The notes: generated from the sequence alone by a model not told the origin. Shown: positions 4,747 through 24,976, numbered from the stretch's first letter. The stretch: 32,000 nucleotides of DNA from Geotalea daltonii FRC-32 (GCF_000022265.1 NC_011979.1:1650001-1682000); one strand, 5' to 3'. Numbers and translations: made by a program.

Positions 4747-4976
4747 TTCTATCTCCGCGGTACCACCCTCATTCATCCCGAATCGATCAGCAACGATTCA
4801 AGACCTTGTTTGACCCTTGACGCGGGCAACGTCTCCAATTACACAGGAATCAGAATGATGATTCCCTTTCACGGGAGAAGCTCCGAGGCGAGTTCATCGT
4901 CTTCACCTGCTGACTCGCACCTGCCGTCAGCTCTCTTTGAGGTGATCGAACGACTACTACTCCTCTTCACAGCTTT
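4714..4976 (-). promoter_or_regulatory. T-box riboswitch leader, predicted Leu (CUC) specifier, controlling leuA
   Basis: On the minus strand:
- K-turn/specifier 5' side: GTGAAGAGGAGTAGTA.
- AG bulge: AAAGAGAGC.
- Distal loop: GGTGCGAG, closed by gctgac/gtcagc.
- Specifier-loop 3' side: GAA-CUC-G (the codon is the complement of 4890-4892).
- Conserved T-box sequence: GAGGGTGGTACCGCGGAG (complement of 4756-4768 core).
- Terminator follows.
The UGGU in the T-box bulge matches an A73 discriminator, as in tRNA-Leu. Confidence 0.85.
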
Positions 4977-4989
4977 TTGAATTGATCCG

Positions 4990-11712: not shown

Positions 11713-11741
11713 AAAATAATACATTATCCGGCAGCTGTCAA
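11713..11741 (-). promoter_or_regulatory. Sigma70-like promoter for the ilvD-ilvBN-ilvC-psd-pssA operon
   Basis: The minus strand reads TTGACA (complement of 11736-11741), a 17-nt spacer, then TATTTT (complement of 11713-11718). It lies about 35 nt upstream of the ilvD ATG. Confidence 0.45.
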
Positions 11742-11851: not shown

Positions 11852-12700
11852 CTAAAGGGATGCAGGGTCGGTAAACGGTACCGGCTTTGGCTTCCCCTGC
11901 GATTTTTCAGCGGGTGCCGGTAACGATGATGGTTGTCTACCGGAGGAGGCTGGCGCTGAATGGGTCCGGGGAGACAGCGTAATATGGTAACGAAGGGGGT
12001 TGTGGGGCGAGGATAGATCCACTGGCGCCGCCGGGCTCTTCATATTACCCAGCAAAGAGTCCGACTTGAAGGCCTGGAGCAGGTAAGGCCGAGGTCTTAC
12101 TATTTCAATGACATATTCTCCACTGGCATCAGTAGGCGTACTGATGTAGATCCTGTTCCTGCCATTACTGGGCTGGTCAGGGTCCAGCAGGTTAACTACC
12201 GCCAGGGAGACAGGATTGCCTGCCGGGTCGCGTACGGTTCCCGTTACCGTGACAAGTTCCGTATCTTTTGATCGACTGCCGGTGGGGGAGGTTTCATGTG
12301 GCGGCAAGTTGCTCCTGTCATTACTCCGCGTCAGCGTTATGGTCGAGTTATTGGTTACAGTGACAATCTGAGCAAGGGGACCTTCAATCGGCAAACGGCG
12401 CTTTGGATCAGGCTGCGTTGCAAAAACACCGCTGCCGATGCTGATGCCGGAGGCGATCAGGTAGGTCCCCGGGGGGAGCATCATGGAGAATGCACCGTCC
12501 GCTCCACATGGAACAGCAAAAAACGGTGCGGAGTAGGACGAGGTTGGAGCTTTATCAGTGGTATAGGCAAAGGCCGCGCAACGCAGGGGTTCCTTTTCCA
12601 TCTGCAGTCGCCCGTTTATCGTGCCATAGGCAAAGCTGGAGGTGGCAGTAGTGAAAAGGAACGCCACTGAGTATGTCAGAGTTTTCATTATTCCTGCCAT
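11852..12700 (-). CDS. Secreted protein with two carboxypeptidase-regulatory-like beta-sandwich domains and a Pro/Ser/Lys-rich tail
   Basis: Signal peptide MKTLTYSVAFLFTTATSSFA-YG. The start is ATG 12700 or ATG 12688, and both have weak SDs. The second domain, VTGTVRDPAGNPVSLAVVNLL...TPTDASGEYVIEI, fits the CarboxypepD_reg pattern. The last ~50 aa are low-complexity (SAPASSGRQPSSLPAPAEKSQGKPKPVP). It starts 20 nt after the stop of the 2291-aa gene. Confidence 0.65.
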   Translation of the reverse strand: MAGIMKTLTYSVAFLFTTATSSFAYGTINGRLQMEKEPLRCAAFAYTTDKAPTSSYSAPFFAVPCGADGAFSMMLPPGTYLIASGISIGSGVFATQPDPKRRLPIEGPLAQIVTVTNNSTITLTRSNDRSNLPPHETSPTGSRSKDTELVTVTGTVRDPAGNPVSLAVVNLLDPDQPSNGRNRIYISTPTDASGEYVIEIVRPRPYLLQAFKSDSLLGNMKSPAAPVDLSSPHNPLRYHITLSPRTHSAPASSGRQPSSLPAPAEKSQGKPKPVPFTDPASL

Positions 12701-12720
12701 AGTCGTTGCCGTTTCTCCGT

Positions 12721-15700
12721 TTATGGGCAGTAGTTTTTGCTTCCGTCGAAGCCAGGCATGGCAATGCTTGCCGGTGTGCTTGCCGTTCCGTAGGAGATGA
12801 CCTCAACGTTGTCGATAAGGGTGCGTAGTTCAGTCGGAGCAGCGTTTGTACGATTGTTGAAGGTAACTATCCAGACGTAGTCGGGAGTCATGGTGCTAGT
12901 TTCCTCATTGGATGTTGTCTGGCTCCAGCCGTTACCAGCCTTGCGGTAATAATGCATCGTTTTGCCGCGTCTGCTGGCCTTGATGCCGCTGGCCTGCAGT
13001 TTTTCTCCGGTGTACCAGGAGCCAATCGTAGTGCCAACACCCCGAACCCATTTGATACTGTCAAAGTATGGCCCATAGGTACTGTTGTCGTAGCCGAAAC
13101 CCACATCATTCCTCAGAGTGCCGGCTGCACTGTTGGGGAAATAGATGCGTAAACGGTTGTATACGTTGTAGGCATTCATGGTATCGGGAATAGTACCTGG
13201 CAGATCGATAGTGAAGTCATAGTTGATATCAAAATCGCCGGTAAAGAAATCGAGGCGGTTCAAGCCGAGCTGGGCAAAGTTGTAAGAGTTTACCGCGATG
13301 CCACCTGGAACTTGTGTATAAAGCTCTGCTTTGCCCGATGTATCCCACGATACCCGCACCGTGCCATCGATATCGGTGGCATTAACCGGCGGTGTAGTAA
13401 AATCTTCATTGCCGTCGCCGTGGCGGTGTCTGCCCCATGGTGCCCAGTCGGTGAGGGATAGCCCGGCAGAGAAGTCATCGAAGAAGCGGCGATAGGGCCG
13501 GACGCGGTAGGTGCGGTTTGCTCCGGGAAAAAGTCCGCTCTTGTCGGTAAAGGTAAGTTCCGGCATGGCTACCAGTGCCAGCGTCTTGATGGTTCCGTCA
13601 GCCTCGATGGCCTCCACAACATGACCGTCGATGGTTACGGTTGCAGACCCCGGTGTCCAGGAGACAGTGGTGGCAAATGGGTTTTGCGTTATCACCGTAA
13701 CGGTGGGGGCACCCATGGCAGAGGTCCGGCCGCACAGTTCCTGCCCGATAGTCGAGTCACCGTTGGCATTTGTAGCTGCCAACGCGTAACAGTATACGGT
13801 GTCCGGCTGGAGATTCGAGTCTGTTACCACTGCGGTTCCTGCCTTGGGCGCTGCACACGAGATGGTCGGGTAGACAGACCCGCAATAATCTTCGAAATAG
13901 GGAAACGCTGCTGTCTTTATGTAATTCTGTCCTGCTGCGAGGCTGCCATCGCGGCGGTAGATCTTGTAGGATTCGGCCCCCTTTGTCAGGTGGAAAGCTA
14001 TTTCCATGCTGGTGTCGGAGAGCTGGCGGGGCATAGGGTCCTCGGGGGGGCTGGGGACCGTTACCACCTGCACCGCAGGGGAAGGCACAGAGTCTCCGCC
14101 GCCATTGACTGCTTTGACACGGTACCAGTAGTTTCCACCGGCTGTGAGGCCGCTGTCCGGATAGGATAGGACATTCTGGTTGCTGACCAGTGTCCACGTT
14201 GCATTATCGGTGGAGCGTTCCAGCTTGTAACCGGTGGCACCGGTAGAACTGCTCCAGTTAACTGTTGCCTGGGTGGCTGTCACTGCCGAGACGGAGGTGA
14301 TAGCCGGAGCTGTGCAAAGCGTCCAGAAGTTCTGGACTACTGCGTTGTTGGATTCCGTGGACTTACCCATTGACTCGACTTTTAACTGATATTGGGTCCC
14401 GGGAACAAGAGCGCTAATGGTCAAAGGACTCGGCGTCCAGTTGTGGGGCGCCGACAGTGGCCCGCTCCAGGCACTGTCGGCTGTTTTCTTGTAATAGATG
14501 TTATAGGAATACGCTTCATCAATTCGGCTGTAACTTACGGTGGCGGAGTAATCTGTCGACATAACCGAGGAGACAGCCGGCGGATTGGGCATAGTCTGGA
14601 CATATTTGTCAGTAGGACTTATCGTCTGCGATTCGATTACAGTACCGTAGAAGTTCATCTTGACAGACCCCATGATGCCTGTGCCTCGCGAGGGGGTGTA
14701 AGTGTAGCTGCAGCTTTGGGTCGCGCAGCTGACAGTGGTTAACAGACTGGCTGAGGACCAGTAGGCCGGATAGGTTTCCGGAAGACCACCGGCATAGTAC
14801 TGGTATGGTTGCACGTAAATATCAAAATTTGCGGCAGCCGGATAACGGGTATTATTCCAGTCAAATCGGATCGTTGTTGCCGTTTGGGTTGAGAGTGTCA
14901 GTGACGGTGGAGCCGGAGGAGCCTGGGCAGTATTGCAGGATTCTGCCGAAAAGGCATCTGCCGGGCCACCGGCGGCTGTATACGCTCTGATTCGATAACA
15001 ATATTCGATGCCGTTGGCGACTGTCGTATCGGTCCAACTGAGGGTGTTGGCGGCAAGTCCCGACTTGACGGTTGTCCAGTTGGTATCCGGGGGCAGGCGG
15101 CGCTGGACATCGAAATAATCCTCCGTCGTATTGGTCCATACCGGTTTCAACTGAGTGGAAGCCGGTATTTCCACGTTAGTCAGGGTTACGGCAAGAGGCA
15201 TGAAGACGAGAATCTTGTTGCTGTCGATAGAATTACCCCCGCTGTTCTTGGCACCGACAGAGACGTTATATGCGCGGTAACCGCCGTAAGGGGACACCGT
15301 GCCGTTGGTAACGTCGGCTGCCAGAGAGATATAGCTAGGGTTGCTGTTATTACAGTAGGTAGCGGGACTGGTAGTAATCTCGCTTACGGTACCGTAGCAG
15401 GCATAGGCTCTCAATTCATACCCCGTATTGCCGGTAACCTGGGACCAGGAGCCGTTGATGGAGGTCGTGCTGTTGGCTGTGGCGGTCAGCAATGTCGGCG
15501 GGTTGAGCCATGTTGTCACAGATATCTCAGGGCTTGGTGTGGGGTTCTCAATTCCCTTGTAGACCGAGAAATAGCGGTAAAAATAGGTCGTATTCGGTAA
15601 TAGCCCGCTGTCGTCAAATCTTGGATGAGTCCCGATTGCCACGATATTGCCGACGGTGGACCATGTTCCTCCAGTGCCCGTTTTACGCTCGACACGGTAA

Positions 15701-18700
15701 TCCGTTACATTGTTGGCAGCGTTGAATGATCGAATGGTCAACGTTGACGCACCGGTGGCATAGTAATCGATCCAGCCCCTGGTAATGGGTTCCGGCATAG
15801 TCGGCACCATGAATTCCGGCGAAGGCAGAGAAAAAAAGCCGCTGATATTCCTGGCGGAGAGGCGGTAATAATAAGTGGTTTGTGGTGTCAATAACGAATC
15901 GTCATAAAAAACGGTGTTGGCCGGCAGGTCGGCGATGGTTTGCCAGGCGCCGCCGGTGTCGGTTTTGCGTTCCAGGCGGTAGCCGGTATTTCCTGCAACA
16001 TTCGACCACAGGGTGCGTGCAGAGGTTGTGGTGATGTCGGCATATGAAGAAATCACAGGTGCGTCCAGGGTAGTTGTGGAGCATATCTCGGTGTGACGGG
16101 TTGTTACCGAATTGAAGGATGCATATATGCGCCAGCAGTACTCGGTGTTTTTTCCCAAGCCGCTGTCGGTGAAGGTGGTTGCATTGGCTGCCAGTTGGCC
16201 GTTTGTCGTGCCCTGCGGTGCAACCCAGACGCCGGAATCCTTGATGCTGCGCATGACATAGGGTGTCGCCCCACTGGTAACGTTTGACCAGGCAAGGACA
16301 ACCTTGGTGTAATCGGCCTGGGGCGTTGCTGTCACTCCAAAGGGCATTATTGCCAAGTCGTTGACAACCTTTAGAGCTAGAAAGTCCTTGTCTCCAGAGG
16401 CAGAAGTGGTGTAACCGGCGACAAAACCCTCACCGAACTTATTGACGGCGATTGTTGCAGCGTGATCGTCCTTGCTTGCCGCTCCGTTATAGAGGAACGA
16501 TTTGACATAGTCCAGGCTATCGGTATAGATGGCCGCTATGATATTGGTGTTGGGGGATGCGCCGCTGTCCGCTGAAAGGTATACATAGCCCGATGGGTCG
16601 ATGCTCAAGCCGGTAAGGATATCGTCGCTGCCGGGATTGCGCAGCTCAGCCTGCTTTTTAAGGGTCCCGGCAGTATCGTAGCGGAGCAGCGTAAGATCGC
16701 GGTCTGTGGTATGGGAATAGCCATCTCCGGCCACGACTACTTCATTGGCAAAGGGATCATAGGCTATCTTGCGGGAAGCGAAACTGGTTGCCGATGTATC
16801 GAGGGGATAGGTCCTGGTCCATCTGCGATCGGCCGTGCCGTTTGCCTCTCCCCAGTATTTGATGGTCGTCATTCTGGTATACCCTGATGCACTGTCGGTG
16901 ATATAGCCGGTTACGTACACATCATTATTGGCGTCAATAGTCAGGGACAGGGCCCGGTTGTCTCCCGTATTGCCATAGGTGTCACTCCAGACCATTGAAC
17001 CGCTCACAGCATCGAACTTTGCCGTAAACCAGCTGTTGTTGCCGGTTTTTTCCACCCGTCCTGCGACAATGACGTTGCCTGCGGTGTCGACAGCCACGGC
17101 TGCCGGGTATTCATTGCCCCCCAGATCCTTTTCGGCGGTGAATTGAACTGTACCGGTGGCGGAGAGCTTCCTGACAAAAAGATTTATGTTGGTGAGATCG
17201 GCGTTGCCATGACCGGCAACGGCAATCCAGTAGGGAGCTACCCCCTGCACGGCCACCACATCCGACTGATCGGCGAGTCTGCCGCTGCTGTTCAACTGGT
17301 CTGTCCACACGGGCTCAGCTTCACCCAGGCCGTCAAGTGCCGGTGAAAGTGCATACTTGAGGGTCCAGACGGAAGGAATGTTGCCGACTCCAGTCACATT
17401 CTGCATGGATGTGCCGGTAACTATCGTTTCCCTGTTCTGGTCTACGGCCAGGGCTACGATCTCATCATCCTCGTCATAGCCCCCATCACGCTGATCTTTC
17501 CAATTCAGAGCAAAATCAGTGCGATTGAGCTTGATTGTGTAATAGTCCTTTGACGGGGTGCTGATACCGTTTTGATCGGAGAATACTGTACCGGTAACTA
17601 CCAAGTTTCCTCCCCAGTAACAGGCAGCGTCAGTGGCCATGTCGTCCCCGTTTGCCGGGTCTCCATAGGAATATGTCAGCACAGGTGCAGAGAAATTGAC
17701 AATTCTCGTCAGGGCAGCGGCCTCTGGGGAATAGTCGCTGTAAGTAGTGTTGTCGAAGGCCCTGACTCTGAAATAGTATTCCGTATCGGCAAGGAGGTCG
17801 GAAATTTCATAGGAAACGGCATTCATCCCTGCCTGGTCCGGAGCGGCAATGGTATAGGCATTGTTGGTCCAGGCGCCGTTTACTCCGATCTTGATATCCA
17901 CCAGAAAGCTGGTTTCCGTTTCCGAGTTGTCCTGAAAGGTCAGCCGCACCGAAGCATTGCTCAGCACCTCGGTGGACAGACCTGTCGGGGGATCGAGAAG
18001 TCCTTTTTCCTGGCGCAGTATAAGCAGGTCGATGTCGTCCTTGTCGTAAACGTAGTACAGGTCTCCTGCAGCAACCGCATAGGGGAGCGCTTCGGCGGAA
18101 GCAAGGAACAGGGTGGTGGCGTCGTTGCCTTGAATGCGGCGGAAAACGTCCTTGTTCTGGCTGCTGACCATGTAGAGGGAGTATCCAGCCCATTGGTTCG
18201 GCGTCCAGGACTTGCTGCTGTTCCGGAGGTCCGTTTTTGAACCGCCGGTTGCTGCCTGGGTGCCTCCGTCGAGGGGTTGCGTACGGTCTGTCCAGGCAGC
18301 GGCAGCAACTCCTTGTCCGGCAAGACCTATGCCCACCGGCAAAGAGCTGTTGCCGATTATCCCGCTCCATTCCTTGTTCCAGAGGATTCGCCCGTTTTTT
18401 CGGCTCAATTTCATGGTCACGATTTTTTTGATTCCGGCATAATCGCGCCACCCGGCAATGAATATGCCGCTGGAAGAGTCCACCGTAAGGGCGGTTGCGC
18501 CGGCGGCATTGGCCGATCCTGCATCGAAGGTCGTGCTCCATACGGTATCGGGAACAGGTGTGCCATTCTTGTGATACTTGATGGCATGGAGCTTTGAAAA
18601 TGCAGGCAAGGTGCCGATGGTTGCCGCAACATAAACATCACCCGACGAATCCATGGCAATCGCTACCGGTTGATCATCGAAACCGGCATCGTGACTTGCT

Positions 18701-19596
18701 TCCCAGACAGGCGTTGCCGATGCAGGCGTAAGTTCGGCGGTGTAGAGATCGCCGCCACGGCCATTGGTAAGGTAGCCGGTGACCACAACATTGCCTGTCG
18801 CAGAAAATGCCAGAGCGGTCCCACGGTCGTTAAATGAAGTCAGTCCTCCTTTGGGCCAGACGCCGATGCGAGTGCCGTCCGCCTGCCACATGACCGTTGC
18901 CATGTCCAGATCGGTACCGTTGAATGTTTCACCAGTGAGGGCAATGGTCGCACCATCTGCGGAGACGGCCACGGCGTAGGCGCGGTCCTTACCAGTGCCG
19001 TTATGGGTACGTGTCCACAGCGGGGTATTGTCACCGGTTCTGTTGTTGTCGAAAGCGAGAAGCAGGTAGTCATCATCATTGCCGTTGCTGCTGTACCCTC
19101 CCAGATAAACCCGGTCCATGACCGGATCATATGCCAGTGCCTGGGTAACATCCGCCATGGTGCCGGTCCCGGACCATGTTTTGCTCCAGACCTCGGCAGG
19201 GATGCTTGTGCCGTTATCATGGTACCTGGTCACATGAACGTCATAACCGCCGCCATTCATAACAGTGGCGGCGACAATGGCATCCCCCCATTTATCGATG
19301 ACCACTGCAGTGCCCTGATCACTTCCTCCTGAAAAATCTTTGCTTGCACGCCAGATAATTGAGCCGTCGGCGGCGTACTTGACGGTATAGAGATCGTCAT
19401 TGCCGTCGCTGGCAAGGCTCTGGAATCCGGTGACAACCATTGCCCCGGTGGAAGGAATAACGGCTGATGCCTTCCCTTCCTGTTTACCTTTGCGCTGGTC
19501 CAGAAGAGGGTGACCGGGCAAATCGCTGCCGCCACTGCCGAAAACAGTCGAGGCTAAAGAAAGGAACATGGCTATGGATAAAAAGGTCTTTTTCAT
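12721..19596 (-). CDS. Giant secreted/surface protein: two beta-propeller-like repeat regions, ~11 FN3-like modules, C-terminal ConA/LamG-like domain
   Basis: 2291-aa uninterrupted ORF with GGAGA SD 6 nt upstream of the ATG.
- Signal peptide: MKKTFLSIAMFLSLASTVFG-SGG.
- aa ~55-435 and ~640-1080: repeats of the type D..G.AVAVD..GNVYVTG.......D..T.KY...G...W (SBBP-like).
- aa ~535-630 and ~1085-2035: FN3-like modules with recurring W..V.GATGY.LER....G.W and Y.YRV.A motifs.
- aa ~2037-2270: ends in ...LIDNVEV, typical of ConA-like jelly-roll domains. Confidence 0.85.
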   Translation of the reverse strand: MKKTFLSIAMFLSLASTVFGSGGSDLPGHPLLDQRKGKQEGKASAVIPSTGAMVVTGFQSLASDGNDDLYTVKYAADGSIIWRASKDFSGGSDQGTAVVIDKWGDAIVAATVMNGGGYDVHVTRYHDNGTSIPAEVWSKTWSGTGTMADVTQALAYDPVMDRVYLGGYSSNGNDDDYLLLAFDNNRTGDNTPLWTRTHNGTGKDRAYAVAVSADGATIALTGETFNGTDLDMATVMWQADGTRIGVWPKGGLTSFNDRGTALAFSATGNVVVTGYLTNGRGGDLYTAELTPASATPVWEASHDAGFDDQPVAIAMDSSGDVYVAATIGTLPAFSKLHAIKYHKNGTPVPDTVWSTTFDAGSANAAGATALTVDSSSGIFIAGWRDYAGIKKIVTMKLSRKNGRILWNKEWSGIIGNSSLPVGIGLAGQGVAAAAWTDRTQPLDGGTQAATGGSKTDLRNSSKSWTPNQWAGYSLYMVSSQNKDVFRRIQGNDATTLFLASAEALPYAVAAGDLYYVYDKDDIDLLILRQEKGLLDPPTGLSTEVLSNASVRLTFQDNSETETSFLVDIKIGVNGAWTNNAYTIAAPDQAGMNAVSYEISDLLADTEYYFRVRAFDNTTYSDYSPEAAALTRIVNFSAPVLTYSYGDPANGDDMATDAACYWGGNLVVTGTVFSDQNGISTPSKDYYTIKLNRTDFALNWKDQRDGGYDEDDEIVALAVDQNRETIVTGTSMQNVTGVGNIPSVWTLKYALSPALDGLGEAEPVWTDQLNSSGRLADQSDVVAVQGVAPYWIAVAGHGNADLTNINLFVRKLSATGTVQFTAEKDLGGNEYPAAVAVDTAGNVIVAGRVEKTGNNSWFTAKFDAVSGSMVWSDTYGNTGDNRALSLTIDANNDVYVTGYITDSASGYTRMTTIKYWGEANGTADRRWTRTYPLDTSATSFASRKIAYDPFANEVVVAGDGYSHTTDRDLTLLRYDTAGTLKKQAELRNPGSDDILTGLSIDPSGYVYLSADSGASPNTNIIAAIYTDSLDYVKSFLYNGAASKDDHAATIAVNKFGEGFVAGYTTSASGDKDFLALKVVNDLAIMPFGVTATPQADYTKVVLAWSNVTSGATPYVMRSIKDSGVWVAPQGTTNGQLAANATTFTDSGLGKNTEYCWRIYASFNSVTTRHTEICSTTTLDAPVISSYADITTTSARTLWSNVAGNTGYRLERKTDTGGAWQTIADLPANTVFYDDSLLTPQTTYYYRLSARNISGFFSLPSPEFMVPTMPEPITRGWIDYYATGASTLTIRSFNAANNVTDYRVERKTGTGGTWSTVGNIVAIGTHPRFDDSGLLPNTTYFYRYFSVYKGIENPTPSPEISVTTWLNPPTLLTATANSTTSINGSWSQVTGNTGYELRAYACYGTVSEITTSPATYCNNSNPSYISLAADVTNGTVSPYGGYRAYNVSVGAKNSGGNSIDSNKILVFMPLAVTLTNVEIPASTQLKPVWTNTTEDYFDVQRRLPPDTNWTTVKSGLAANTLSWTDTTVANGIEYCYRIRAYTAAGGPADAFSAESCNTAQAPPAPPSLTLSTQTATTIRFDWNNTRYPAAANFDIYVQPYQYYAGGLPETYPAYWSSASLLTTVSCATQSCSYTYTPSRGTGIMGSVKMNFYGTVIESQTISPTDKYVQTMPNPPAVSSVMSTDYSATVSYSRIDEAYSYNIYYKKTADSAWSGPLSAPHNWTPSPLTISALVPGTQYQLKVESMGKSTESNNAVVQNFWTLCTAPAITSVSAVTATQATVNWSSSTGATGYKLERSTDNATWTLVSNQNVLSYPDSGLTAGGNYWYRVKAVNGGGDSVPSPAVQVVTVPSPPEDPMPRQLSDTSMEIAFHLTKGAESYKIYRRDGSLAAGQNYIKTAAFPYFEDYCGSVYPTISCAAPKAGTAVVTDSNLQPDTVYCYALAATNANGDSTIGQELCGRTSAMGAPTVTVITQNPFATTVSWTPGSATVTIDGHVVEAIEADGTIKTLALVAMPELTFTDKSGLFPGANRTYRVRPYRRFFDDFSAGLSLTDWAPWGRHRHGDGNEDFTTPPVNATDIDGTVRVSWDTSGKAELYTQVPGGIAVNSYNFAQLGLNRLDFFTGDFDINYDFTIDLPGTIPDTMNAYNVYNRLRIYFPNSAAGTLRNDVGFGYDNSTYGPYFDSIKWVRGVGTTIGSWYTGEKLQASGIKASRRGKTMHYYRKAGNGWSQTTSNEETSTMTPDYVWIVTFNNRTNAAPTELRTLIDNVEVISYGTASTPASIAMPGFDGSKNYCP
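13492..16344 (-). repeat. Tandem array of ~10 FN3-like protein modules (diverged, ~85-110 aa each) inside the 2291-aa gene
   Basis: By eye there are module boundaries at about aa 1085, 1178, 1266, 1365, 1467, 1560, 1670, 1762, 1848 and 1960. Recurrent motifs include NTGYRLERKTDTGGAW, VTDYRVERKTGTGGTW, ATGYKLERSTDNATW, and Y(Y/W)YR(L/V) near module ends. Repetition is at the protein level; I saw no long exact DNA repeats. Confidence 0.6.
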
Positions 19597-19608
19597 GTCA
19601 TTTCTCCA

Positions 19609-22600
19609 TCACTTGCTGTAGCTGCGGGGTGGCACGCTGCTCGGCCATGGCGTTACATTGTTCCACATGTTTTCCTGGGGCCATTGGTCCGGGACTGTCT
19701 GGAATTCATCTATGACGGAGGGGTAAGGAGGCGTAATGGTAATATCTGTCCGCCGTAAATGGCATTGGGTAAAGGCTTCATATTTGTACGGGTCTGCCTT
19801 GTAAGCTGCATCGCTTGGCAGTATTTTGTCCGTGATGGTACCCCCAATGGGAAAACCCCAGTGGCCACCGGTCAAATCTCCCCCGTACGTGGCGCTAAGG
19901 TCTGTGGCCGCAACCTTGCCTCCGGATGAGAGCCGGCCCCGATGCTGGTAGTCCAGGCAGTTTGTAACCATCAGCCGCGGCAGTCCCGATGAGTGGGGCT
20001 GGTGGCACTTGGAGCAGGTAAAAGAATGCTCGGTATTGGCTCCCCAGCCCTTGACGGTTTCGTGGACTCGGTCACGGGATTTCCAGGGGGTGTTCTTGTT
20101 GATGCCGTCGGTAAGTTTTTCCTGCTGATGGCAGCGCGTGCACAATCCGGCAAACTGCCTGTCATTTTCGGCAACACGGCTGGTATTGAAGGTATTACGA
20201 TCACTGTTCCAGCCAAGCAGCACAGGAACTGTAGGCCTTCTGTTGTCCCAACCTGTGGGCACACTGTAATCCCTGGCAGGGGGGCCACCCCAGCTGTAGG
20301 GAGGAATTGCCCTGCCACCACTGGTACTCAGAGGTGGTGCATCTTCCTTATAGGGGTTGGTCATCCAGGTTCCCTTCAGCAGCGGCACAGCATAGGGCAT
20401 CTGCTCTCCCATTGTCGGCGAAACGCCATGGGGATCGTGGCAGGGTGTACAGAGGCCGTTGATGCGCTCATGGGTCGTATAGTTGAGCAAGCTGGAGGCG
20501 GAAAAGTGGGTGCCGGCAACGGTTGTCTTGCTGCGGTAGGGGAAACGGGTGTAGCGCCCCTTGGTACCGCCGCCGAATTTGGGGCTGTCATCGTAGCCAA
20601 TGATCGGCTGGCTGGCGCTGAAGGTGGACTGATACCCCCAGGGCCTGGTTAAGGAAGCATTCTGGGTTTCATGACAGTCGAAGCATTGACCGGCCCCGGC
20701 TTCATAGGCATTCTTGCCCGTTGCATTCTTCTGCGCCATGTACGTCGTGGCATATCCTCCCTTGCCGTTCTGTGTTTCCTTGAGATTTCCCCCGTTACGG
20801 GTGTTGTTGAAGGTCACGTAGCTGGTGGTGGTTCCGTTGACCTTTGAGCCGTGAGAGTTGTGGCAGTCATAACACTGAACATTAATTGAACTTGCTCTGG
20901 TATTGGGGGGCGCGGCGTCATAGCCGTTTGCCGCATCCCATCCTCCCTGGTTGGCGGTTGCATTGCCGTGGGCTGAGAATGCCTTGACGACGGTATCCTT
21001 GCGGTTGGCGTTGGGCCAGCTGCCGGAATTGACCTTGCCCCAGGTGGTGGTTCCCTTCTGCTGATAGCGTGAGGCGATGGATTGTCCATCCCATGCATAC
21101 TGGCGCGGAGTCTTGCAGTCATTGAAAGGGGTAGCGGAATTATTCTGATCGGAATGGCAGGAGATGCAGTGGTTGTTGAGTTTACCTACCTCCTCTCGCT
21201 CATTGACCGTGGCAATGCGGTTGGCGGTGAACTGGATGGCGGAAGTTGCGCTGTAGAAGGTGGGACGCCGCTCCTTCTGCCAGACGACCAGGTCGACCTT
21301 TGCATCTTTCACTCCGGAGTAGGAATTGAAGTTGAAGCCTTCATGGTAGGTGGCATCGATGGTGCCGAACTCGGTTGCCTCCCAGTGACAGGCATAGCAC
21401 TGGCGGCCGGTCAGCGTTACTCCCTGTACATGATGGGAATTGCTGTTGAACTGGCCTATCACATCTCCCCGGTTACCGATGGATCCCGCATGACATTTGA
21501 CGCAGACAACCGGCAAACCGAAGGCCACGTGCTTGGGTACCGGCTTGGCATTGCTGTGACAGGAGTTGCAGGGCTGGGAATCGGCGTGCCCGTCGGCGAA
21601 GCGGTGCATGTGGCAGGTGGTGCAGATCTTGTTGGAATTGTGGCCGTCACTGAAATTGCTCAGATAATGTTTCGAATCGGGTCCGTGGCAGACATTGCAG
21701 AGTCTAGTTGAGTCACCGGCATAATCGAGGCCCCTCGTCTTTTGGGTAAAGGATACTGCGGCCCTGGTAATCGGGCGTCCATACTTGCCATCGGTGGTGG
21801 TGGCTACCTGGCTTTGGATCATGTAGATATTGCTGTCGCCGTGGGGATCATGGCAGTCCCAGCAGAATTTGCCTCCTTTCCAGACGCCGTTTGTCTGGTA
21901 GGAATTCCAGTGCTTTTTGCCGAAGTGTGCGGCCGAGGCCCGTGCCTGCTTCGGTTTGATGAACCCTGTTCCCGGATTGTAGCCCAGGGAGTATTTGCCG
22001 GGGTTGCTTGGCGGGGGCGCGTGGCAGAATGTACACTGTCCGCCCGAATCGTCGTCATGGCACTGCAGGCAGACACCCATCATTACGTACTGATTCTTTA
22101 TGTCCGCTTTCTGGGCGGTGGTCCATGTTCCGGCACCAGTGGAATGCCCTTTGTGTCCGCCTGAAGAGAAAAGACCGTCGTCGCTGTCGTGACAGCCGGT
22201 AGCGGTGCAGCCATTCAGCCAGCCATGATCCGGCCAGTCCGTGCGCGTCTCCCCCGTTCTCAGTTTTACCATGATGCCGCTCATGGTTGCCTGGGGGGCA
22301 AGACTCTCAGTCTGGCTCACATGGCACTGGATACATTCATAATCCTTGTGTTCCATATGGCAGTATGCGCATTCCTTGTCGAAGCGCTGCTCGTACTGGG
22401 GGTGCTTTTTCAACCTGAAATAGTTTTCCTCGCCCCCGTGGACGACGGTGTTGTCGTGGCAATACCAGCAGGGGTTACTGGGGAAATTGGCAGCAGGATT
22501 ATTGGACCAGGGATAGCGGCCTGCTGTGGAATAACGGCCATGTCCGGTGGTCACCCACTGGCTCAGGTTAACTTTTGCCATGGTGCCGTTATTGAAGGCG

Positions 22601-24648
22601 GTAAAGGTGTCGACATCGGTATCCATGGTCCCGTGACAGTTCAGGCAGATGATGCTGGAATCTATGGATGCCCCCCACTGCGGGTTGGAAGTACCCGTAT
22701 GGCAACGGGTGTTTGAGCACGTCTTGCTACTTCTGTTGTATGAACCTCCTGCCCTGAACAAGACGTCGCTGATCTTGTTGACGTGATAGGCCGGGTTGAT
22801 ATGGGCGATTTCGCCCATGTTGCCGGCAGGGAGTCCCCCTGCATGGCAGGTCTCGCAATCACCATTGACGACAGTGGCTGTATGGCAGTTACCGCATGTG
22901 AATGATGTTCCGGTATGGCGGGGGTGGGAGTTTGCCCTTACTTCACCAGGCCCTTCATTGCGGAATATGGGCATCGCAGCACGCCATTCCGAACCTGTGG
23001 TCCAGCCGGTATAGACCGCCCAGGTTCTGCCGTCGTGGGTGGTACCGTCATGACAGCCGGAGGCGTTGCAAGTTCCGGTAATGGGGTGGCCATGGCAGGC
23101 ATTGCAGCGTGACCATCCCTTGTTGGGCCAATTAGGCTGCTTAACTTCCTCGTCCAGGGGGTTGGCCGTACCGTCGGAGTGGCAGTAGACGTTGCTGCAG
23201 ATTTTGGAATCCGGATTATAGGAGGGCGCAGGGCGCCCATCTATTGCCCATTGAGAATCGATTACCACCTGCTTCGAGCCATCGGCATGTCTGGTCATGT
23301 CCTTGATACTTCCTGCTGCATTCACTGTCTGGTTATGGCAGTAGCTGCAGGGATACTTGCGGATCCACTGGGGCCCCACATGCTTGGCATGGGCATTGGT
23401 GGAGATATTGACGAAGGGGGTACAGGCGCCGTGTTCGCTGTCCCAGACCCCGCCGATCTCGGCGCAATTGGCTACAGTAGAGTCGGAGGTGAGCCCCTTG
23501 TGGCAGTAAAAGCATTTATACGGTCCCGCTTCGTTCCATGCCGGTGTCCTGAAACCCTGCTGGCCAAGGGCGTTGGAATGACAGTAGGTGTTGGTGCATT
23601 GCTTTGTCGACTCGCCGAAACTGCCACCCTCTTTTAATGCAACATCCTTCTGCCCGTCAACATGCCTGTTCCGGTCACTAATGGCTGCCGAGCCAGTGAC
23701 GGTGGTGCTGTGGCATTTGTCGCACTGGTACTGGTAATCACCGGCATGCTTGTCGTGACGAGGACTCATGGAGGAGGTATCGCTGTTTCCGCCATGGCAG
23801 CCGGTACAAGTGACGCTTCCTCCCCAGGTGGGGGTGGCGGAGACGGTACCCCTGCCGTCAGGACTGCCGTTGGAATGGCAGTAGATGCCGCTGCAGGTGC
23901 CATTTCTATTCTTATTTTGTGAAGGCAGATAATTAGTGTTCGTCATGACACCTGAATATGAGCCGCCACCGTTTGGGTGCGTTGTAAATTGAAGTAGGAT
24001 GGGCCGATGTCCGGCGCTAGTTGCATGGGAAAAGGTGTTGTGGCCGGGATGGCATTTGCTGCAGCTGTGCTCGTCGGTACCGTAGTAGTCGCCATGTTTC
24101 TTCCCGGAACCAGTGGTGGCAGGGTGACTGCCGTTGGCGGGGGGGAGGCCATGGCAGTTGCCGCAGGCAGGCTGATTCTGAGGAAACGGGTTTCCCCACA
24201 GGGGGGTATCGGACTCGAAGTGGCAATTGACGTTGGTGCACTTGCCGAGGACAGGTTCTGCCGTCTGGGGGAACGGTGTTGTCCAGTTGCGGAATGCCGA
24301 GGTGTGGTTCTTGTAAAGCGCCGGTTCTGGCGAAGGGGAATTATTTATGTTCGGGGTGAGGCTGATCAGCCCGTCACGGTGGGAGGACGTATAGTCCTGG
24401 CTGCCGCGGTGGCAGATGCTGCAGCTTGCCGGTCCGGCTGCCAGGGGAAGATGTGCTCTGTGTTTGCCCTGAAAGCCGCCGGTGGTGATATTGCGGTAGG
24501 TGTCGTCAACCGGCCGGTAATCATGCGTACTGCGAGAGCCGTGACAGTCGTAACAGGAAATGGACGCTGCCGCAGTTCCGGATAACAAAGTCAGCAACAT
24601 CAATGTCCATAAGCAGCTTGTCATCCGCCTTATAACGGTGCCGTACAT
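19609..24648 (-). CDS. Giant multihaem c-type cytochrome (29 CXXCH + 7 CX4CH motifs)
   Basis: 1679-aa ORF with AGGAGG SD 4 nt upstream of the ATG and a signal peptide (...LWTLMLLTLLSGTAAA-SIS).
- CXXCH motifs counted by hand start at aa 32, 76, 162, 196, 281, 309, 379, 434, 515, 585, 598, 668, 727, 760, 772, 860, 872, 929, 984, 1009, 1027, 1049, 1084, 1161, 1259, 1322, 1400, 1503 and 1545.
- CX4CH motifs start at aa 137, 252, 351, 484, 527, 644 and 814. Confidence 0.9.
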   Translation of the reverse strand: MYGTVIRRMTSCLWTLMLLTLLSGTAAASISCYDCHGSRSTHDYRPVDDTYRNITTGGFQGKHRAHLPLAAGPASCSICHRGSQDYTSSHRDGLISLTPNINNSPSPEPALYKNHTSAFRNWTTPFPQTAEPVLGKCTNVNCHFESDTPLWGNPFPQNQPACGNCHGLPPANGSHPATTGSGKKHGDYYGTDEHSCSKCHPGHNTFSHATSAGHRPILLQFTTHPNGGGSYSGVMTNTNYLPSQNKNRNGTCSGIYCHSNGSPDGRGTVSATPTWGGSVTCTGCHGGNSDTSSMSPRHDKHAGDYQYQCDKCHSTTVTGSAAISDRNRHVDGQKDVALKEGGSFGESTKQCTNTYCHSNALGQQGFRTPAWNEAGPYKCFYCHKGLTSDSTVANCAEIGGVWDSEHGACTPFVNISTNAHAKHVGPQWIRKYPCSYCHNQTVNAAGSIKDMTRHADGSKQVVIDSQWAIDGRPAPSYNPDSKICSNVYCHSDGTANPLDEEVKQPNWPNKGWSRCNACHGHPITGTCNASGCHDGTTHDGRTWAVYTGWTTGSEWRAAMPIFRNEGPGEVRANSHPRHTGTSFTCGNCHTATVVNGDCETCHAGGLPAGNMGEIAHINPAYHVNKISDVLFRAGGSYNRSSKTCSNTRCHTGTSNPQWGASIDSSIICLNCHGTMDTDVDTFTAFNNGTMAKVNLSQWVTTGHGRYSTAGRYPWSNNPAANFPSNPCWYCHDNTVVHGGEENYFRLKKHPQYEQRFDKECAYCHMEHKDYECIQCHVSQTESLAPQATMSGIMVKLRTGETRTDWPDHGWLNGCTATGCHDSDDGLFSSGGHKGHSTGAGTWTTAQKADIKNQYVMMGVCLQCHDDDSGGQCTFCHAPPPSNPGKYSLGYNPGTGFIKPKQARASAAHFGKKHWNSYQTNGVWKGGKFCWDCHDPHGDSNIYMIQSQVATTTDGKYGRPITRAAVSFTQKTRGLDYAGDSTRLCNVCHGPDSKHYLSNFSDGHNSNKICTTCHMHRFADGHADSQPCNSCHSNAKPVPKHVAFGLPVVCVKCHAGSIGNRGDVIGQFNSNSHHVQGVTLTGRQCYACHWEATEFGTIDATYHEGFNFNSYSGVKDAKVDLVVWQKERRPTFYSATSAIQFTANRIATVNEREEVGKLNNHCISCHSDQNNSATPFNDCKTPRQYAWDGQSIASRYQQKGTTTWGKVNSGSWPNANRKDTVVKAFSAHGNATANQGGWDAANGYDAAPPNTRASSINVQCYDCHNSHGSKVNGTTTSYVTFNNTRNGGNLKETQNGKGGYATTYMAQKNATGKNAYEAGAGQCFDCHETQNASLTRPWGYQSTFSASQPIIGYDDSPKFGGGTKGRYTRFPYRSKTTVAGTHFSASSLLNYTTHERINGLCTPCHDPHGVSPTMGEQMPYAVPLLKGTWMTNPYKEDAPPLSTSGGRAIPPYSWGGPPARDYSVPTGWDNRRPTVPVLLGWNSDRNTFNTSRVAENDRQFAGLCTRCHQQEKLTDGINKNTPWKSRDRVHETVKGWGANTEHSFTCSKCHQPHSSGLPRLMVTNCLDYQHRGRLSSGGKVAATDLSATYGGDLTGGHWGFPIGGTITDKILPSDAAYKADPYKYEAFTQCHLRRTDITITPPYPSVIDEFQTVPDQWPQENMWNNVTPWPSSVPPRSYSK
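22456..24240 (-). repeat. Five tandem CX4CH...CXXCH...CXXCH protein modules in the N-terminal third of the cytochrome
   Basis: The modules start at aa 137 (CTNVNCH), 252 (CSGIYCH), 351 (CTNTYCH), 484 (CSNVYCH) and 644 (CSNTRCH). Each is followed 19-26 aa later by a CXXCH and then by another CXXCH. The period is ~100-160 aa. From memory this resembles the Geobacter CxxxxCH...CXXCH domain family. Confidence 0.7.
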
Positions 24649-24918
24649 GTTGCCTCCTGCAAGCCTGACAGGCCAAAGCTGTTGCCGTACGGCCAGCTTG
24701 TCCTATAGGCGGCTATTAATGTTATTTCTTTATAATGAGTTCTTAATCTCGCGCGTGAGCTATCGGTATATACTTTTTAAATAGAAAATTCCCGCTGAAA
24801 TACAGGCAAGATCAGCCGGAACAATGGCTTATTGGCGGCCTCGATTGTCACTGGGAGGCGATAAACACCTGAAATAACTAAAAAATACCGTGGCAGAGGC
24901 ATAAGGTGTAAAAAATAA

Positions 24919-24934
24919 TGCAAATATACAACCA
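24919..24934 (-). promoter_or_regulatory. Sigma54-like -24/-12 element candidate upstream of the cytochrome operon
   Basis: The minus strand reads TTGGTTGTATATTTGCATT, with GG-N10-GC spacing and a perfect TTGCA -12 box, but only TGG of the TGGCAC -24 box. It is ~270 nt upstream of the ATG and only ~45 nt after the tsaB stop. This is a weak call. Confidence 0.2.
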
Positions 24935-24976
24935 AATTGTATTAATTAAAACACGTTGTGAAAATGGCGCAGTGGT

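What the first reader, a model, noticed from the sequence alone, without database searches (positions are those of the whole stretch)
11852..24976. 12.8-kb operon of three secreted proteins (giant cytochrome, giant propeller/FN3 protein, small beta-sandwich protein) splitting two housekeeping blocks
Seen in sequence:
- Three same-strand ORFs (1679, 2291 and 282 aa) are separated by only 12 and 20 nt.
- Each has its own SD and an N-terminal signal peptide.
- A 328-nt AT-rich non-coding region precedes them.
- I could find no convincing terminator before the ilvD promoter.
- The flanks are universally conserved core genes: ilvD on one side and tsaB-rseP-dxr on the other.
- There is no integrase, transposase, tRNA or flanking repeat, and GC content looks host-like.

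Established knowledge: Geobacteraceae use outer-surface multihaem cytochromes for extracellular electron transfer. From memory, the ilv/leu block and the tsaB...rpsB block are close neighbours in Geobacter sulfurreducens; this needs checking.

Inference: this is a lineage-specific accessory module. A cytochrome with about 36 haem motifs is co-expressed with a huge adhesin-like scaffold and a small Ig-like partner. It could be a cell-surface electron-transfer/attachment complex that has not been characterised. It lacks the porin-like component of known porin-cytochrome conduits.
Basis: partly seen in the sequence, partly recalled or inferred. Interest (0 to 1): 0.7.

Follow-up and report, generated by a model that had tools for sequence, protein, structure and literature searches.

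The report
Giant cytochrome with conserved propeller partner
A 36-haem cytochrome gene in Geotalea daltonii is followed, as in about 70 loci from other metal-reducing bacteria, by a giant propeller/fibronectin protein whose conserved C-terminal cysteine tail tends to be lost together with one cytochrome cysteine, which points to an undescribed, possibly covalently linked electron-transfer pair.

Summary
The window is the Geotalea (Geobacter) daltonii FRC-32 chromosome. Geob_1513 (1679 aa, 29 CxxCH + 7 CxxxxCH), Geob_1512 (2291 aa) and Geob_1511 (282 aa) lie on the minus strand with 12- and 20-nt gaps, inserted between tsaB and ilvD. In relatives tsaB abuts ilvD directly.

The module is not lineage-specific. 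In 79 genome loci (Geobacteraceae, Desulfuromonadaceae, Nitrospirota, Desulfobulbia) a Geob_1512 homologue follows the cytochrome homologue wherever downstream DNA exists, with one exception. Genomes often carry 2-4 copies. The small protein belongs to a CarboxypepD_reg family found in about half of the loci.

New here: most partner proteins end in the tail SYSNE..VTTPAY..GD.TC(P)-COOH. Seven paired cytochromes lack the otherwise conserved Cys1178. In six of them the partner's tail has also lost its Cys; one is discordant, and these probably represent a single evolutionary event.

Best reading: a secreted, porin-less cytochrome/scaffold complex for extracellular electron transfer, possibly disulfide-tethered, and possibly sigma-54 controlled. 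Function and location are untested. I found no paper describing the pairing.

The parts
24919..24934 (-). Candidate sigma-54 (-24/-12) promoter TGGTTGTATATTTGCA, about 270 nt upstream of the cytochrome start codon
   Evidence: It is the only TGG-N8-TTGCW match in the 32-kb window on either strand. It is conserved in the orthologous leaders of L002 and L007. The same motif lies upstream of the cytochrome gene in 19 of 74 related loci, against about 2 expected from the background rate. NtrC-type sigma-54 activators lie near the pair in 8 loci. Activity was not tested.
24649..24976 (-). 328-nt AT-rich upstream region and long 5' leader
   Evidence: GC is 41.8%. No Rfam family matches it at E<=1. 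A weak sigma-70-like site lies at 24964-24936 and a weak hairpin plus T-run at 24806-24791.
19609..24648 (-). Geob_1513, a 1679-aa secreted multihaem c-type cytochrome (36 canonical haem motifs) of the CxxxxCH/CxxCH family
   Evidence: NCBIfam TIGR01904 scores 129 bits against a cutoff of 27, in 5 stretches. Pfam Cytochrome_C7, Cytochrom_c3_2 and GSu_C4xC__C2xCH match. There are 754 homologues at E<1e-10. The C-terminal 820 aa has 222 representatives of 50%-identity clusters at E<=1e-30. No PDB sequence relative was found.
21115..21117 (-). Codon of Cys1178 (motif PF-N-D-C-K-T-P-R-Q-Y-A-W-D), a conserved non-haem cysteine and the candidate attachment point for the partner's C-terminal Cys
   Evidence: Cys is present in 68 of 71 paired cytochromes. 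The three that lack it are exactly the three whose partner tails lack Cys. Further pairs are L088, L122 and L123 (concordant) and L086 (discordant).
12721..19596 (-). Geob_1512, a 2291-aa secreted partner protein
   Evidence: A homologue follows the cytochrome homologue on the same strand in every one of 79 related loci that has downstream DNA, except L055.
16357..19485 (-). N-terminal region of Geob_1512 (aa ~38-1080): two SBBP/delta-60-type beta-propellers separated by one FN3 domain. This is the part conserved across the whole partner family.
   Evidence: The AF2 model of aa 1-1100 has mean pLDDT 87.5 and is all-beta. Foldseek against PDB gives the CylK propeller at E 1e-17 and Sevenless/ROS1/LRP2 ectodomains (propellers plus FN3). 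SBBP, NHL and DUF5122 give weak Pfam hits and LipL53 SBBP a weak NCBIfam hit. Distant homologues are 30-37% identical over this region.
13507..16299 (-). FN3 array of Geob_1512 (aa ~1100-2030, roughly ten FN3 domains)
   Evidence: Pfam fn3 hits occur in successive 300-aa slices. PDB sequence hits are to titin FN3 arrays.
12802..13479 (-). Clade-specific, fast-evolving ~230-aa domain of Geob_1512. It appears to be inserted between the F strand of the last FN3 domain (YRVRPYRR) and the conserved tail. Its fold is unassigned.
   Evidence: Identity here is only ~30% between orthologues that are ~57% identical overall. See alignment A4. There is no Pfam hit and no PDB hit with a profile. Most homologues lack it: their tail follows an FN3 domain directly.
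12724..12789 (-). Conserved C-terminal tail of Geob_1512, ending ...PASIAMPGFDGSKNYCP-COOH (family consensus [S/P]YSNEATVTTPA[Y/F]xxGDxTC[P/Q]-COOH)
   Evidence: 47 of 57 ORF ends in the family carry a Cys within the last 4 residues. The position-by-position consensus comes from 34 complete pairs. There is no transmembrane segment after it (by inspection).
11852..12700 (-). Geob_1511, a 282-aa (278 aa in RefSeq) secreted protein with two CarboxypepD_reg-like beta-sandwich regions and a Pro-rich tail. It is the facultative third component.
   Evidence: Pfam CarboxypepD_reg scores 42 bits against a cutoff of 32.3. Close orthologues occur only in the Geotalea clade. The family profile matches the recurrent neighbour cluster c2 with hhalign probability 99%, E 3e-18, over 174 columns. 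A gene of this kind directly follows the partner gene in 15 of 43 loci and lies within the locus in 21 of 43.
11713..11741 (-). Sigma-70-like promoter of ilvD (TTGACA-17-TATTTT). It marks the downstream boundary of the cassette.
   Evidence: No terminator-like site lies between 11852 and this promoter.

Best explanation
Geob_1513, Geob_1512 and Geob_1511 form one transcription unit. It encodes a Sec-exported, porin-independent redox module built around an obligate pair.

- **The pair:** a ~36/37-haem cytochrome forms a long intramolecular haem wire (tens of nm; inferred). Its partner is a giant protein with two beta-propellers, an FN3 stalk and a short conserved C-terminal Cys tail.
- **How they connect:** I propose that the partner is the structural scaffold, anchor or adhesin of the cytochrome. 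The tail would dock on the conserved C-terminal module of the cytochrome, probably through a disulfide between the terminal Cys and Cys1178.
- **Third component:** the small CarboxypepD_reg protein is a facultative accessory subunit.
- **Function:** the complex most likely works outside the cytoplasmic membrane, at or beyond the outer surface, in extracellular electron transfer to insoluble or polymeric acceptors.
- **Regulation:** transcription probably starts at a sigma-54 promoter.

**Shown:** gene anatomy; near-universal synteny of the pair; the conserved tail; co-loss of the two cysteines in one clade; the propeller/FN3 architecture; insertion at an otherwise empty tsaB-ilvD site.

**Inferred:** physical complex, disulfide, surface location, electron-transfer role, sigma-54 control.
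For: - **Operon anatomy:**
- **Synteny:** the cytochrome is followed by a partner homologue on the same strand in every one of 79 genome loci with downstream DNA, except L055. The loci span Geobacteraceae, Desulfuromonadaceae, Pelobacter, Geothermobacter, Trichloromonas, Nitrospirae/Thermodesulfovibrionia and Desulfobulbia. It is also seen in G. metallireducens and Geobacter sp. OR-1.
- **The pair moves as a unit:** its genomic contexts differ between loci. Single genomes carry 2-4 copies.
- **Tail:** conserved in 47 of 57 ORF ends whatever domain precedes it.
- **Cysteine co-variation:** Cys1178 is conserved in 68 of 71 paired cytochromes. All 3 exceptions, plus L088, L122 and L123, have partners whose tails lack Cys. 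No C1178-containing cytochrome is paired with a canonical tail that lacks Cys.
- **Partner structure:** the N-terminus models confidently as double propeller plus FN3, an ectodomain-like architecture.
- **Export:** signal peptides are present and lipoboxes absent.
- **Taxonomy:** the family is concentrated in metal-respiring lineages.
- **Sigma-54:** the motif is enriched about 10-fold upstream of family members and activators lie nearby.
Against: - There are no experimental data for any family member. I found no paper on these genes.
- Cellular location is not established, and no secretion or anchoring machinery is encoded in the window.
- The cysteine co-loss is probably one evolutionary event: the Cys-less cytochromes cluster together and several share rplM-rpsI-argC synteny. 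It therefore carries little statistical weight.
- L086 is discordant: the cytochrome has Phe at 1178 but the tail keeps its Cys.
- Four or five partners (L012, L018, L024, L027) end differently, without the tail, while their cytochromes keep C1178.
- The AF2 model of the cytochrome was too poor (pLDDT 47) to show whether C1178 is exposed.
- The sigma-54 motif is short, and three matches per window are expected by chance.
Confidence: 0.5

Rival explanations
1. Periplasmic module. The cytochrome is a trans-periplasmic wire or electron store, and the propeller/FN3 protein is a periplasmic partner. Neither protein leaves the cell.
For: All three proteins have only Sec signal peptides. No outer-membrane porin, lipobox or known surface-sorting signal is present. 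Soares et al. 2024 (PMC11492766) note many long-wire multihaem cytochromes predicted to be periplasmic.
Against: A ~2300-3500-aa protein with two propellers and about 10 or more FN3 domains would extend far beyond the periplasmic width (inference). Propeller-plus-FN3 architecture is typical of surface ectodomains. Some loci sit beside type-II-secretion-like genes. Soares et al. predict the comparable 27-haem wire cluster to be extracellular.
Confidence: 0.2
2. Redox enzyme complex. The beta-propellers of the partner form a catalytic or substrate-binding site (for example for a mineral, sulfur or organic polymer substrate), and the cytochrome only delivers or removes electrons.
For: The best structural match of the propeller is an enzyme, CylK. 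The propeller region is the part of the partner conserved across the family. NosD-like beta-helix proteins recur next to the pair.
Against: No catalytic family is detected by Pfam or NCBIfam. Identity to CylK is about 16%, with TM-score ~0.46 on the target. No cofactor-binding motif was identified. Multiple divergent paralogues per genome fit a binding or scaffold role better than one enzymatic reaction.
Confidence: 0.15
3. Co-transcribed but functionally independent. The giant protein is a generic adhesin or surface-layer component that merely shares an operon with a cytochrome, and the cysteine pattern is coincidence.
For: FN3/SBBP giant proteins are common bacterial adhesins. The cysteine co-loss may be a single event with one discordant pair.
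Against: Gene order is kept in about 70 loci across phyla and across paralogues that are only 40-50% identical, in unrelated genomic contexts. A conserved tail that tracks a cytochrome residue is not expected for independent proteins.
Confidence: 0.1

Closest known systems
Porin-cytochrome conduits (Geobacter OmaB-OmbB-OmcB and ExtABCD; Shewanella MtrCAB)
   Same: They are gene clusters of multihaem c-type cytochromes in metal-reducing bacteria, thought to carry electrons out of the cell. The genes are co-transcribed and several paralogous clusters occur per genome.
   Different: There is no beta-barrel porin gene here or recurrently in 79 related loci. There is no lipoprotein cytochrome. One 36-haem polypeptide replaces 8-12-haem subunits. 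The invariant partner is a propeller/FN3 giant.
Long single-chain 'molecular wire' cytochromes (GSU1996 dodecahaem; the 27-haem cluster and OmcA/OmcG/OmcH-type proteins surveyed by Soares et al. 2024, PMC11492766)
   Same: Many haems lie in one chain. c7/c3-type modules are detected. The comparable cluster is predicted to be extracellular and not part of a porin-cytochrome operon.
   Different: That survey does not report a conserved partner gene, a C-terminal tail or cysteine co-variation. I did not test whether the window protein belongs to their cluster 2 or is related to GSU2882-2884.
Cytochrome nanowires OmcS, OmcE and OmcZ
   Same: They are extracellular haem chains of Geobacter. In OmcS, subunits are linked by a residue of one chain completing a haem site of the next, which is a precedent for inter-chain bonding (my own knowledge). 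Accessory gene blocks are linked to maturation and secretion (PMC12977616).
   Different: Those are small (4-8 haem) subunits that polymerise. Here the wire would be a single giant chain tied to a non-cytochrome protein. There is no sequence similarity to solved structures.
NHL/beta-propeller proteins encoded beside outer-surface cytochromes (D. ferrophilus DFE_0451 and DFE_0463, PMC9769857; G. metallireducens NHL-repeat proteins needed for Fe(III) oxide reduction, recalled from memory of Smith et al. 2013)
   Same: A beta-propeller repeat protein is genetically linked to multihaem cytochromes implicated in Fe(III) oxide reduction.
   Different: Those are much smaller NHL proteins. No FN3 stalk, C-terminal Cys tail or one-to-one pairing with a 33-37-haem cytochrome is described. 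Homology to Geob_1512 was not tested.
Giant multihaem cytochromes fused to S-layer domains in ANME/Methanoperedens archaea (my own knowledge; compare PMC9012536, listed)
   Same: A very large multihaem cytochrome is combined with a large non-haem surface-structure module, proposed for extracellular electron transfer.
   Different: In the archaea the two are fused in one polypeptide. Here they are two adjacent genes, possibly joined after translation. The domains are unrelated.
Sevenless/ROS1/LRP-type ectodomains
   Same: They alternate beta-propellers with FN3 domains (Foldseek E 1e-13 to 1e-11).
   Different: The resemblance is architectural only (about 9-10% identity). They are eukaryotic receptors and no homology is implied.

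Membership tests
CxxxxCH/CxxCH domain c-type cytochromes (TIGR01904 / PF09698) | Repeated domain with a CxxxxCH motif followed by CxxCH | tested here: met
   NCBIfam scores 129.4 bits against a cutoff of 27, in 5 stretches. Pfam PF09698 scores 53.7 bits against 21.7. There are 7 CxxxxCH and 29 CxxCH motifs.
Porin-cytochrome (Pcc/Mtr/Ext) conduit | An adjacent gene for an outer-membrane beta-barrel porin | tested here: not met
   There is no such ORF in the window cassette. No recurrent porin-like cluster appears among 874 ORFs of 85 related loci. The recurrent clusters are cytochrome, partner, CarboxypepD_reg/NosD, sigma-54 activators, ResB-like proteins and others.
Porin-cytochrome (Pcc/Mtr/Ext) conduit | An outer-surface lipoprotein cytochrome (lipobox Cys) | tested here: not met
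   The signal peptide ends ...GTAAAS-ISCYDCH. The first Cys belongs to a CxxCH motif, and there is no L-[AS]-[GA]-C lipobox (by inspection).
Polymerising cytochrome nanowires (OmcS/OmcE/OmcZ) | A small 4-8-haem subunit homologous to a known filament protein | tested here: not met
   The protein has 1679 aa and 36 haem motifs. phmmer finds no PDB chain at E<=0.01.
Polymerising cytochrome nanowires (OmcS/OmcE/OmcZ) | Head-to-tail polymerisation into filaments | not testable with these tools
   This needs cryo-EM or biochemistry.
MtrC/OmcA/UndA outer-surface decahaem family | MtrC-type pentahaem domains II/IV flanked by beta-barrel domains | tested here: inconclusive
   PF22113 is listed among the precomputed Pfam domains of many homologues; where a strength mark is given (L001, L086, L087) the hit is 'faint'. 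It is not detected in the window protein at E<=0.01. The AF2 model is too poor to judge.
SBBP / delta-60 repeat beta-propeller proteins | Tandem ~55-60-aa repeats that fold into beta-propeller blades | tested here: met
   Sequence hits are weak: SBBP 17 bits against a cutoff of 20.5; delta_60_rpt 29 against 76.5; LipL53 57.8 against 400. Structure supports the assignment: the AF2 model has pLDDT 87.5, is all-beta, and its best Foldseek matches are propeller-containing proteins — CylK at the top, then Sevenless/ROS1/LRP2 ectodomains and Sec12/WD40 propellers. This is fold membership only, below the curated sequence thresholds.
Fibronectin type III domain proteins | FN3 domains above the Pfam threshold | tested here: met
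   PF00041 scores 94.1 bits against a cutoff of 25. There are hits in six successive slices and titin FN3 hits in PDB.
CarboxypepD_reg-like (transthyretin-like beta-sandwich) proteins | PF13620 domain above threshold | tested here: met
   Geob_1511 scores 42 bits against a cutoff of 32.3. Its profile matches the recurrent neighbour family with hhalign probability 99%.
Known C-terminal sorting signals (LPXTG, PEP-CTERM, GlyGly-CTERM, MYXO-CTERM, T9SS CTD) | A signature motif followed by a transmembrane helix and basic residues, or an ~80-aa beta-sandwich CTD | tested here: not met
   The tail ends 0-3 residues after the Cys, with no hydrophobic segment. No NCBIfam or Pfam sorting-domain hit was found.
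Genomic island / mobile element | Integrase or transposase, a tRNA target, flanking direct repeats, or atypical composition | tested here: not met
   There is no tRNA and no boundary repeats. Cassette GC is 55.5%, against 52-55% for the flanks. No such ORFs are present. The site is nevertheless empty in relatives.
Sigma-54-dependent operon | A -24 GG / -12 GC promoter with correct spacing, plus dependence on RpoN and an enhancer-binding protein | tested here: inconclusive
   The motif is present, unique in the window, conserved, and enriched in 19 of 74 loci. Activator genes lie near the pair in 8 other loci, but none is in this window. RpoN dependence is not testable here.

The most novel reading that the evidence does not exclude
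These pairs are a new, porin-independent class of extracellular electron conduit. A single-chain ~36-haem wire would be covalently tethered, through a disulfide between Cys1178 and the C-terminal Cys of a dedicated docking tail, to a giant propeller/FN3 scaffold that positions it on the cell surface or on minerals. The system would be spread in multiple specialised copies across Desulfuromonadia, Nitrospirota and Desulfobulbia.
Probability: 0.25. Interest if true: 0.85.

Novelty: new variant of a known kind. Interest (0 to 1): 0.68.

Why it matters
- **An open problem:** Geobacter-type bacteria encode many giant multihaem cytochromes whose roles are unknown, and sequence alone annotates them poorly (PMC12977616, PMC11492766).
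- **A handle on one family:** this large family (222 representatives of 50%-identity clusters at E<=1e-30) comes with an obligate non-cytochrome partner. A specific, mutable contact is predicted: Cys1178 and the C-terminal Cys tail.
- **A testable question:** how does a very long haem wire get positioned outside the cell without a porin-cytochrome complex? G. metallireducens is genetically tractable and carries a homologous pair (L001).
- **A practical marker:** the tail motif and the gene pairing could be used to find such modules in metagenomes from iron-reducing and subsurface environments.

Tried and rejected
- **Riboswitch in the 328-nt leader:** I looked for a GEMM-type c-di-GMP riboswitch, known upstream of Geobacter FN3 and cytochrome genes. 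There is no Rfam hit even at E<=1.
- **Mobile-element origin:** rejected. No tRNA, repeats or integrase, and normal GC.
- **Second 'GGC...TTGC' motif next to the ribosome-binding site (about 24660-24680):** the spacing is wrong for sigma-54 and it is too close to the start codon. My first pattern search also used the wrong spacer (N9) and was redone with N8.
- **AF2 model of cytochrome residues 860-1679:** mean pLDDT 47, so unusable. I ran no fold search on it.
- **PDB sequence searches:** nothing for the cytochrome, for Geob_1511, or for the C-terminal inserted domain with a profile. 'ConA-like' therefore stays unverified.
- **Scaffold running the length of the wire:** haem number does not correlate with partner length (Spearman rho 0.23, p 0.15, n=41).
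- **Radical-SAM/SPASM modification of the tail:** rSAM genes occur in only about 4 loci, and their neighbours are heterogeneous (permease, cupin). Dropped.
- **C1564 plus C1629-H1630 as one long-spaced haem site:** C1564 is replaced in L080 and L055 while the CH is kept, so it is not obligatory.
- **Independence of the Cys1178 losses:** P0091 only shifts the Cys by 3 residues. P0121, P0130 and P0124 share synteny. Independence could not be shown.
- **Literature:** searches for the locus tags, CxxxxCH, NHL/SBBP/FN3 with multihaem, TIGR01904/PF09698, and G. metallireducens with fibronectin found no description of the pairing. Two look-ups of exact proteins (P0033, P0039) found no contig on record.

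Full report
**1. Observation**

The window is part of the Geotalea (formerly Geobacter) daltonii FRC-32 chromosome. Exact look-up names the three products: Geob_1513 'cytochrome c, 37 heme-binding sites', Geob_1512 'fibronectin type III repeat protein' and Geob_1511 (hypothetical). The flanking products are dihydroxy-acid dehydratase (IlvD) and TsaB.

The three minus-strand ORFs are at 19609-24648 (1679 aa), 12721-19596 (2291 aa) and 11852-12700 (282 aa). The gaps are 12 and 20 nt, and each start is preceded by a GGAG-type ribosome-binding site.

The cytochrome has 29 CxxCH and 7 CxxxxCH motifs. It also has six other cysteines: C12 (in the signal peptide), C395, C409, C1178, C1564 and C1629-H1630. 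All three proteins begin with Sec-type signal peptides and none has a lipobox (inspection).

The 328-nt upstream region is 41.8% GC, against 55.5% for the cassette. The cassette matches its flanks in composition. There is no tRNA, no boundary repeat and no integrase. No terminator-like site separates Geob_1511 from the ilvD promoter-like site at 11741-11713.

**2. What the proteins are**

- **Cytochrome.** It belongs to the CxxxxCH/CxxCH family (TIGR01904, 129 bits; Pfam PF09698, Cytochrome_C7, Cytochrom_c3_2). It has no relative among solved structures by sequence. Fourteen diverse homologues align along the whole length, with dense invariant positions in the C-terminal two-thirds.
- **Geob_1512.** It consists of a double beta-propeller interrupted by one FN3 domain (aa ~38-1080), an array of roughly ten FN3 domains (aa ~1100-2030), a ~230-aa domain with no detectable relatives, and a short tail. 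The AF2 model of aa 1-1100 is confident (mean pLDDT 87.5) and all-beta. Foldseek matches the CylK propeller and Sevenless/ROS1/LRP2 ectodomains, which alternate propellers with FN3 domains.
- **Geob_1511.** It carries a CarboxypepD_reg domain.
- **Failed model.** AF2 on cytochrome residues 860-1679 gave pLDDT 47, so I did not use it.

**3. Comparative genomics**

The cytochrome has 754 homologues at E<1e-10 in the word-indexed search. Its C-terminal 820 aa has 222 representatives of 50%-identity clusters at E<=1e-30. A second copy in G. daltonii itself is 55% identical.

A scan of one genome per species returned 79 loci. They come from Geobacteraceae, Desulfuromonadaceae, Pelobacter, Trichloromonas, Geothermobacter, Geoanaerobacter, Nitrospirae/Thermodesulfovibrionia, Desulfobulbia and one Polyangiaceae MAG.

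- **The pair is near-universal.** tblastn and all-against-all ORF clustering show a Geob_1512 homologue (2000-3500 aa) following the cytochrome gene on the same strand in every locus with downstream sequence. The one exception is L055.
- **Other genomes show the same.** G. metallireducens has a 1521-aa cytochrome followed by a >3400-aa FN3/DUF2341/LamG protein. Geobacter sp. OR-1 also has the pair.
- **The pair moves as a unit.** The surrounding genes differ between loci. Several genomes carry 3-4 copies, for example OR-1 (L009, L013, L027) and a Desulfuromonadaceae MAG (L034, L037, L072, L081).
- **The third gene is facultative.** Close orthologues of Geob_1511 exist only in the Geotalea clade. 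Its family profile nevertheless matches the most frequent neighbour family, small or NosD-fused CarboxypepD_reg proteins, with hhalign probability 99%. Such a gene directly follows the partner gene in 15 of 43 informative loci and lies within the locus in 21 of 43.
- **No porin-like family recurs**.

**4. Insertion site**

Among metagenome contigs carrying a TsaB 56-71% identical to the window's, nine show dxr-rseP-tsaB followed within ~90-170 nt by ilvD(-ilvB): L090, L093, L094-L098, L100 and L102. L091 carries the cassette at the same site. The cassette also sits after tsaB in L002, L007, L008, L022 and in the more distant L048.

**5. A conserved C-terminal tail and a co-varying cysteine (new here)**

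Of 57 partner ORF ends, 47 carry a Cys within the last four residues. The consensus is [S/P]YSNEATVTTPA[Y/F]xxGDxTC[P/Q]-COOH. In most homologues the tail follows an FN3 domain. In the Geotalea/OR-1 clade a fast-evolving ~230-aa domain lies between the last FN3 F strand and the tail; it is ~30% identical between proteins that are ~57% identical overall. The tail has no transmembrane segment and matches no known sorting signal.

- **First set.** Among 71 cytochrome/partner pairs, Cys1178 (motif PF.DCKTPRQYAWD) is present in 68. The three exceptions (L046, L076, L083; Tyr/Tyr/Phe) are exactly the three complete pairs whose tails read ...GDNV[G/N]P without Cys.
- **Follow-up pairs.** L088, L122 and L123 have Tyr or Phe at 1178 and Cys-less tails. 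L086 has Phe at 1178 but its tail ...EATVCPE keeps the Cys, so it is discordant.
- **Converse.** No cytochrome with C1178 is paired with a canonical tail lacking Cys. Four or five partners end in unrelated sequences (L012, L018, L024, L027).
- **Caveat.** The Cys-less cytochromes are mutually closest (74-76% identity) and several share rplM-rpsI-argC synteny. The co-loss may be one event, with L086 as an intermediate. It is a lead, not a statistical proof.
- **Other cysteines.** C395/C409 are gained or lost together, which fits a local disulfide. C1564 is replaced in L080 and L055. C1629-H1630 is invariant and may be the '37th' site.

**6. Regulation**

The only TGG-N8-TTGCW match in the whole window lies at 24919-24934 on the correct strand, ~270 nt upstream of the start codon. 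It is conserved in L002 and L007. The same motif occurs upstream of the cytochrome gene in 19 of 74 loci, against about 2 expected from the background rate. NtrC-type activators and hybrid kinases recur nearby. No riboswitch is present.

**7. Mechanism**

Best reading (confidence ~0.5): a secreted cytochrome/scaffold complex.

- The 36/37-haem chain would be a long intramolecular wire. From the ~0.8 nm per haem rise of OmcS (my own knowledge), that is tens of nanometres.
- The propeller/FN3 protein would be its dedicated structural partner, docking through the C-terminal tail and possibly forming a disulfide to Cys1178.
- The CarboxypepD_reg protein would be an optional accessory subunit.
- The role would be extracellular electron transfer without a porin-cytochrome conduit.
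- That the pair is a functional unit is well supported (~0.8). The electron-transfer role (~0.55), surface location and disulfide (~0.35) are inferences.
- The rivals are a periplasmic wire, a propeller enzyme fed by the cytochrome, and mere co-transcription.

**8. Comparison and novelty**

The genes are annotated and the cytochrome domain family is catalogued. Surveys note long-wire cytochromes outside porin operons (PMC11492766) and rapid cytochrome turnover (PMC12977616). Beta-propeller (NHL) genes beside cytochromes are noted in D. ferrophilus (PMC9769857).

I found no description of the near-universal cytochrome/propeller-FN3 pairing, the tail, or the cysteine co-variation. The searchable library is limited to open-access papers.

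I rate this a new variant of a known kind (outer-surface multihaem electron-transfer systems), with interest 0.68.

Noticed in passing
window 4733-4979 (-): A T-box leader (Rfam RF00230, 121.9 bits against a gathering score of 93) lies just upstream of the 516-aa ORF at 3098-4648. From its position in the ilv/leu block that ORF is probably leuA.
   Followed up: no
window 24791-24806 (-): A weak hairpin followed by a T-run lies inside the long 5' leader, between the candidate sigma-54 promoter and the cytochrome start codon. The sequence is conserved in G. toluenoxydans. It could be an attenuator or a chance match.
   Followed up: no
window 19609-24648 (-), residues 1629-1630; also 1564: A lone Cys-His (TQCH) near the C terminus is present in all 72 aligned cytochromes — every member of the family examined. 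It may be the 37th haem site counted in GenBank, as a single-thioether site. Cys1564 is nearly invariant but is replaced in L080 (Ala) and L055 (Gly).
   Followed up: partly
P0124, P0114, P0073, P0130, P0053 (homologues), at positions equivalent to window residues 644-649 and 814-819: Some homologues replace the CxxxxCH sites with CX5CH or CX6CH spacings (for example CLNASGCH and CSGTGASCH). Spacing at these haem sites therefore varies within the family.
   Followed up: no
L005 17056-26855; L031 635-9173; L021; L067; L018: A looser accessory neighbourhood recurs in several loci: CarboxypepD_reg-NosD/beta-helix fusions (680-850 aa), a ResB-like protein (7 loci), a DsbD_2/NicO membrane protein, an ArsP-type permease, and radical-SAM/SPASM plus PqqD-like genes. 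It may include a dedicated haem-attachment or thiol-redox system for the unusual CX4CH sites. The window has none of these genes.
   Followed up: partly
L022 (Geotalea toluenoxydans JCM 15764, NZ_BBCJ01000003): In this draft assembly the cytochrome and partner genes are broken into many short ORFs. A newer G. toluenoxydans record has intact 1679-aa and 2291-aa proteins, so the breaks look like assembly frameshifts and not pseudogenes.
   Followed up: partly
window 12689-12700 (-): RefSeq starts Geob_1511 four codons downstream (MKTL..., 278 aa, WP_195892565), whereas the GenBank and ORF start gives 282 aa (MAGIMKTL...). All four orthologues conserve an upstream Met (alignment A7), which slightly favours the longer form.
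   Followed up: partly
L004/L009 17100-26000 (Geobacter sp. OR-1): The closest non-Geotalea orthologous pair lies next to type-II-secretion-like genes (T2SSB, an ExeA-like AAA+/PG-binding protein, and a MshEN/T2SSE ATPase) and MacB-type ABC transporter genes. This is a possible export route for the pair, seen in one genome only.
   Followed up: no
L018, P0164, P0167, P0173; L027, P0177: Two alternative partner C-termini replace the canonical tail: ...C[TS][IL]T[IVM]D.D..[IV]TG[TS]F[QRH], which also contains a Cys, and ...SVEQS.I..VTAN. The partner cytochromes examined (L018, L027) keep Cys1178.
   Followed up: partly
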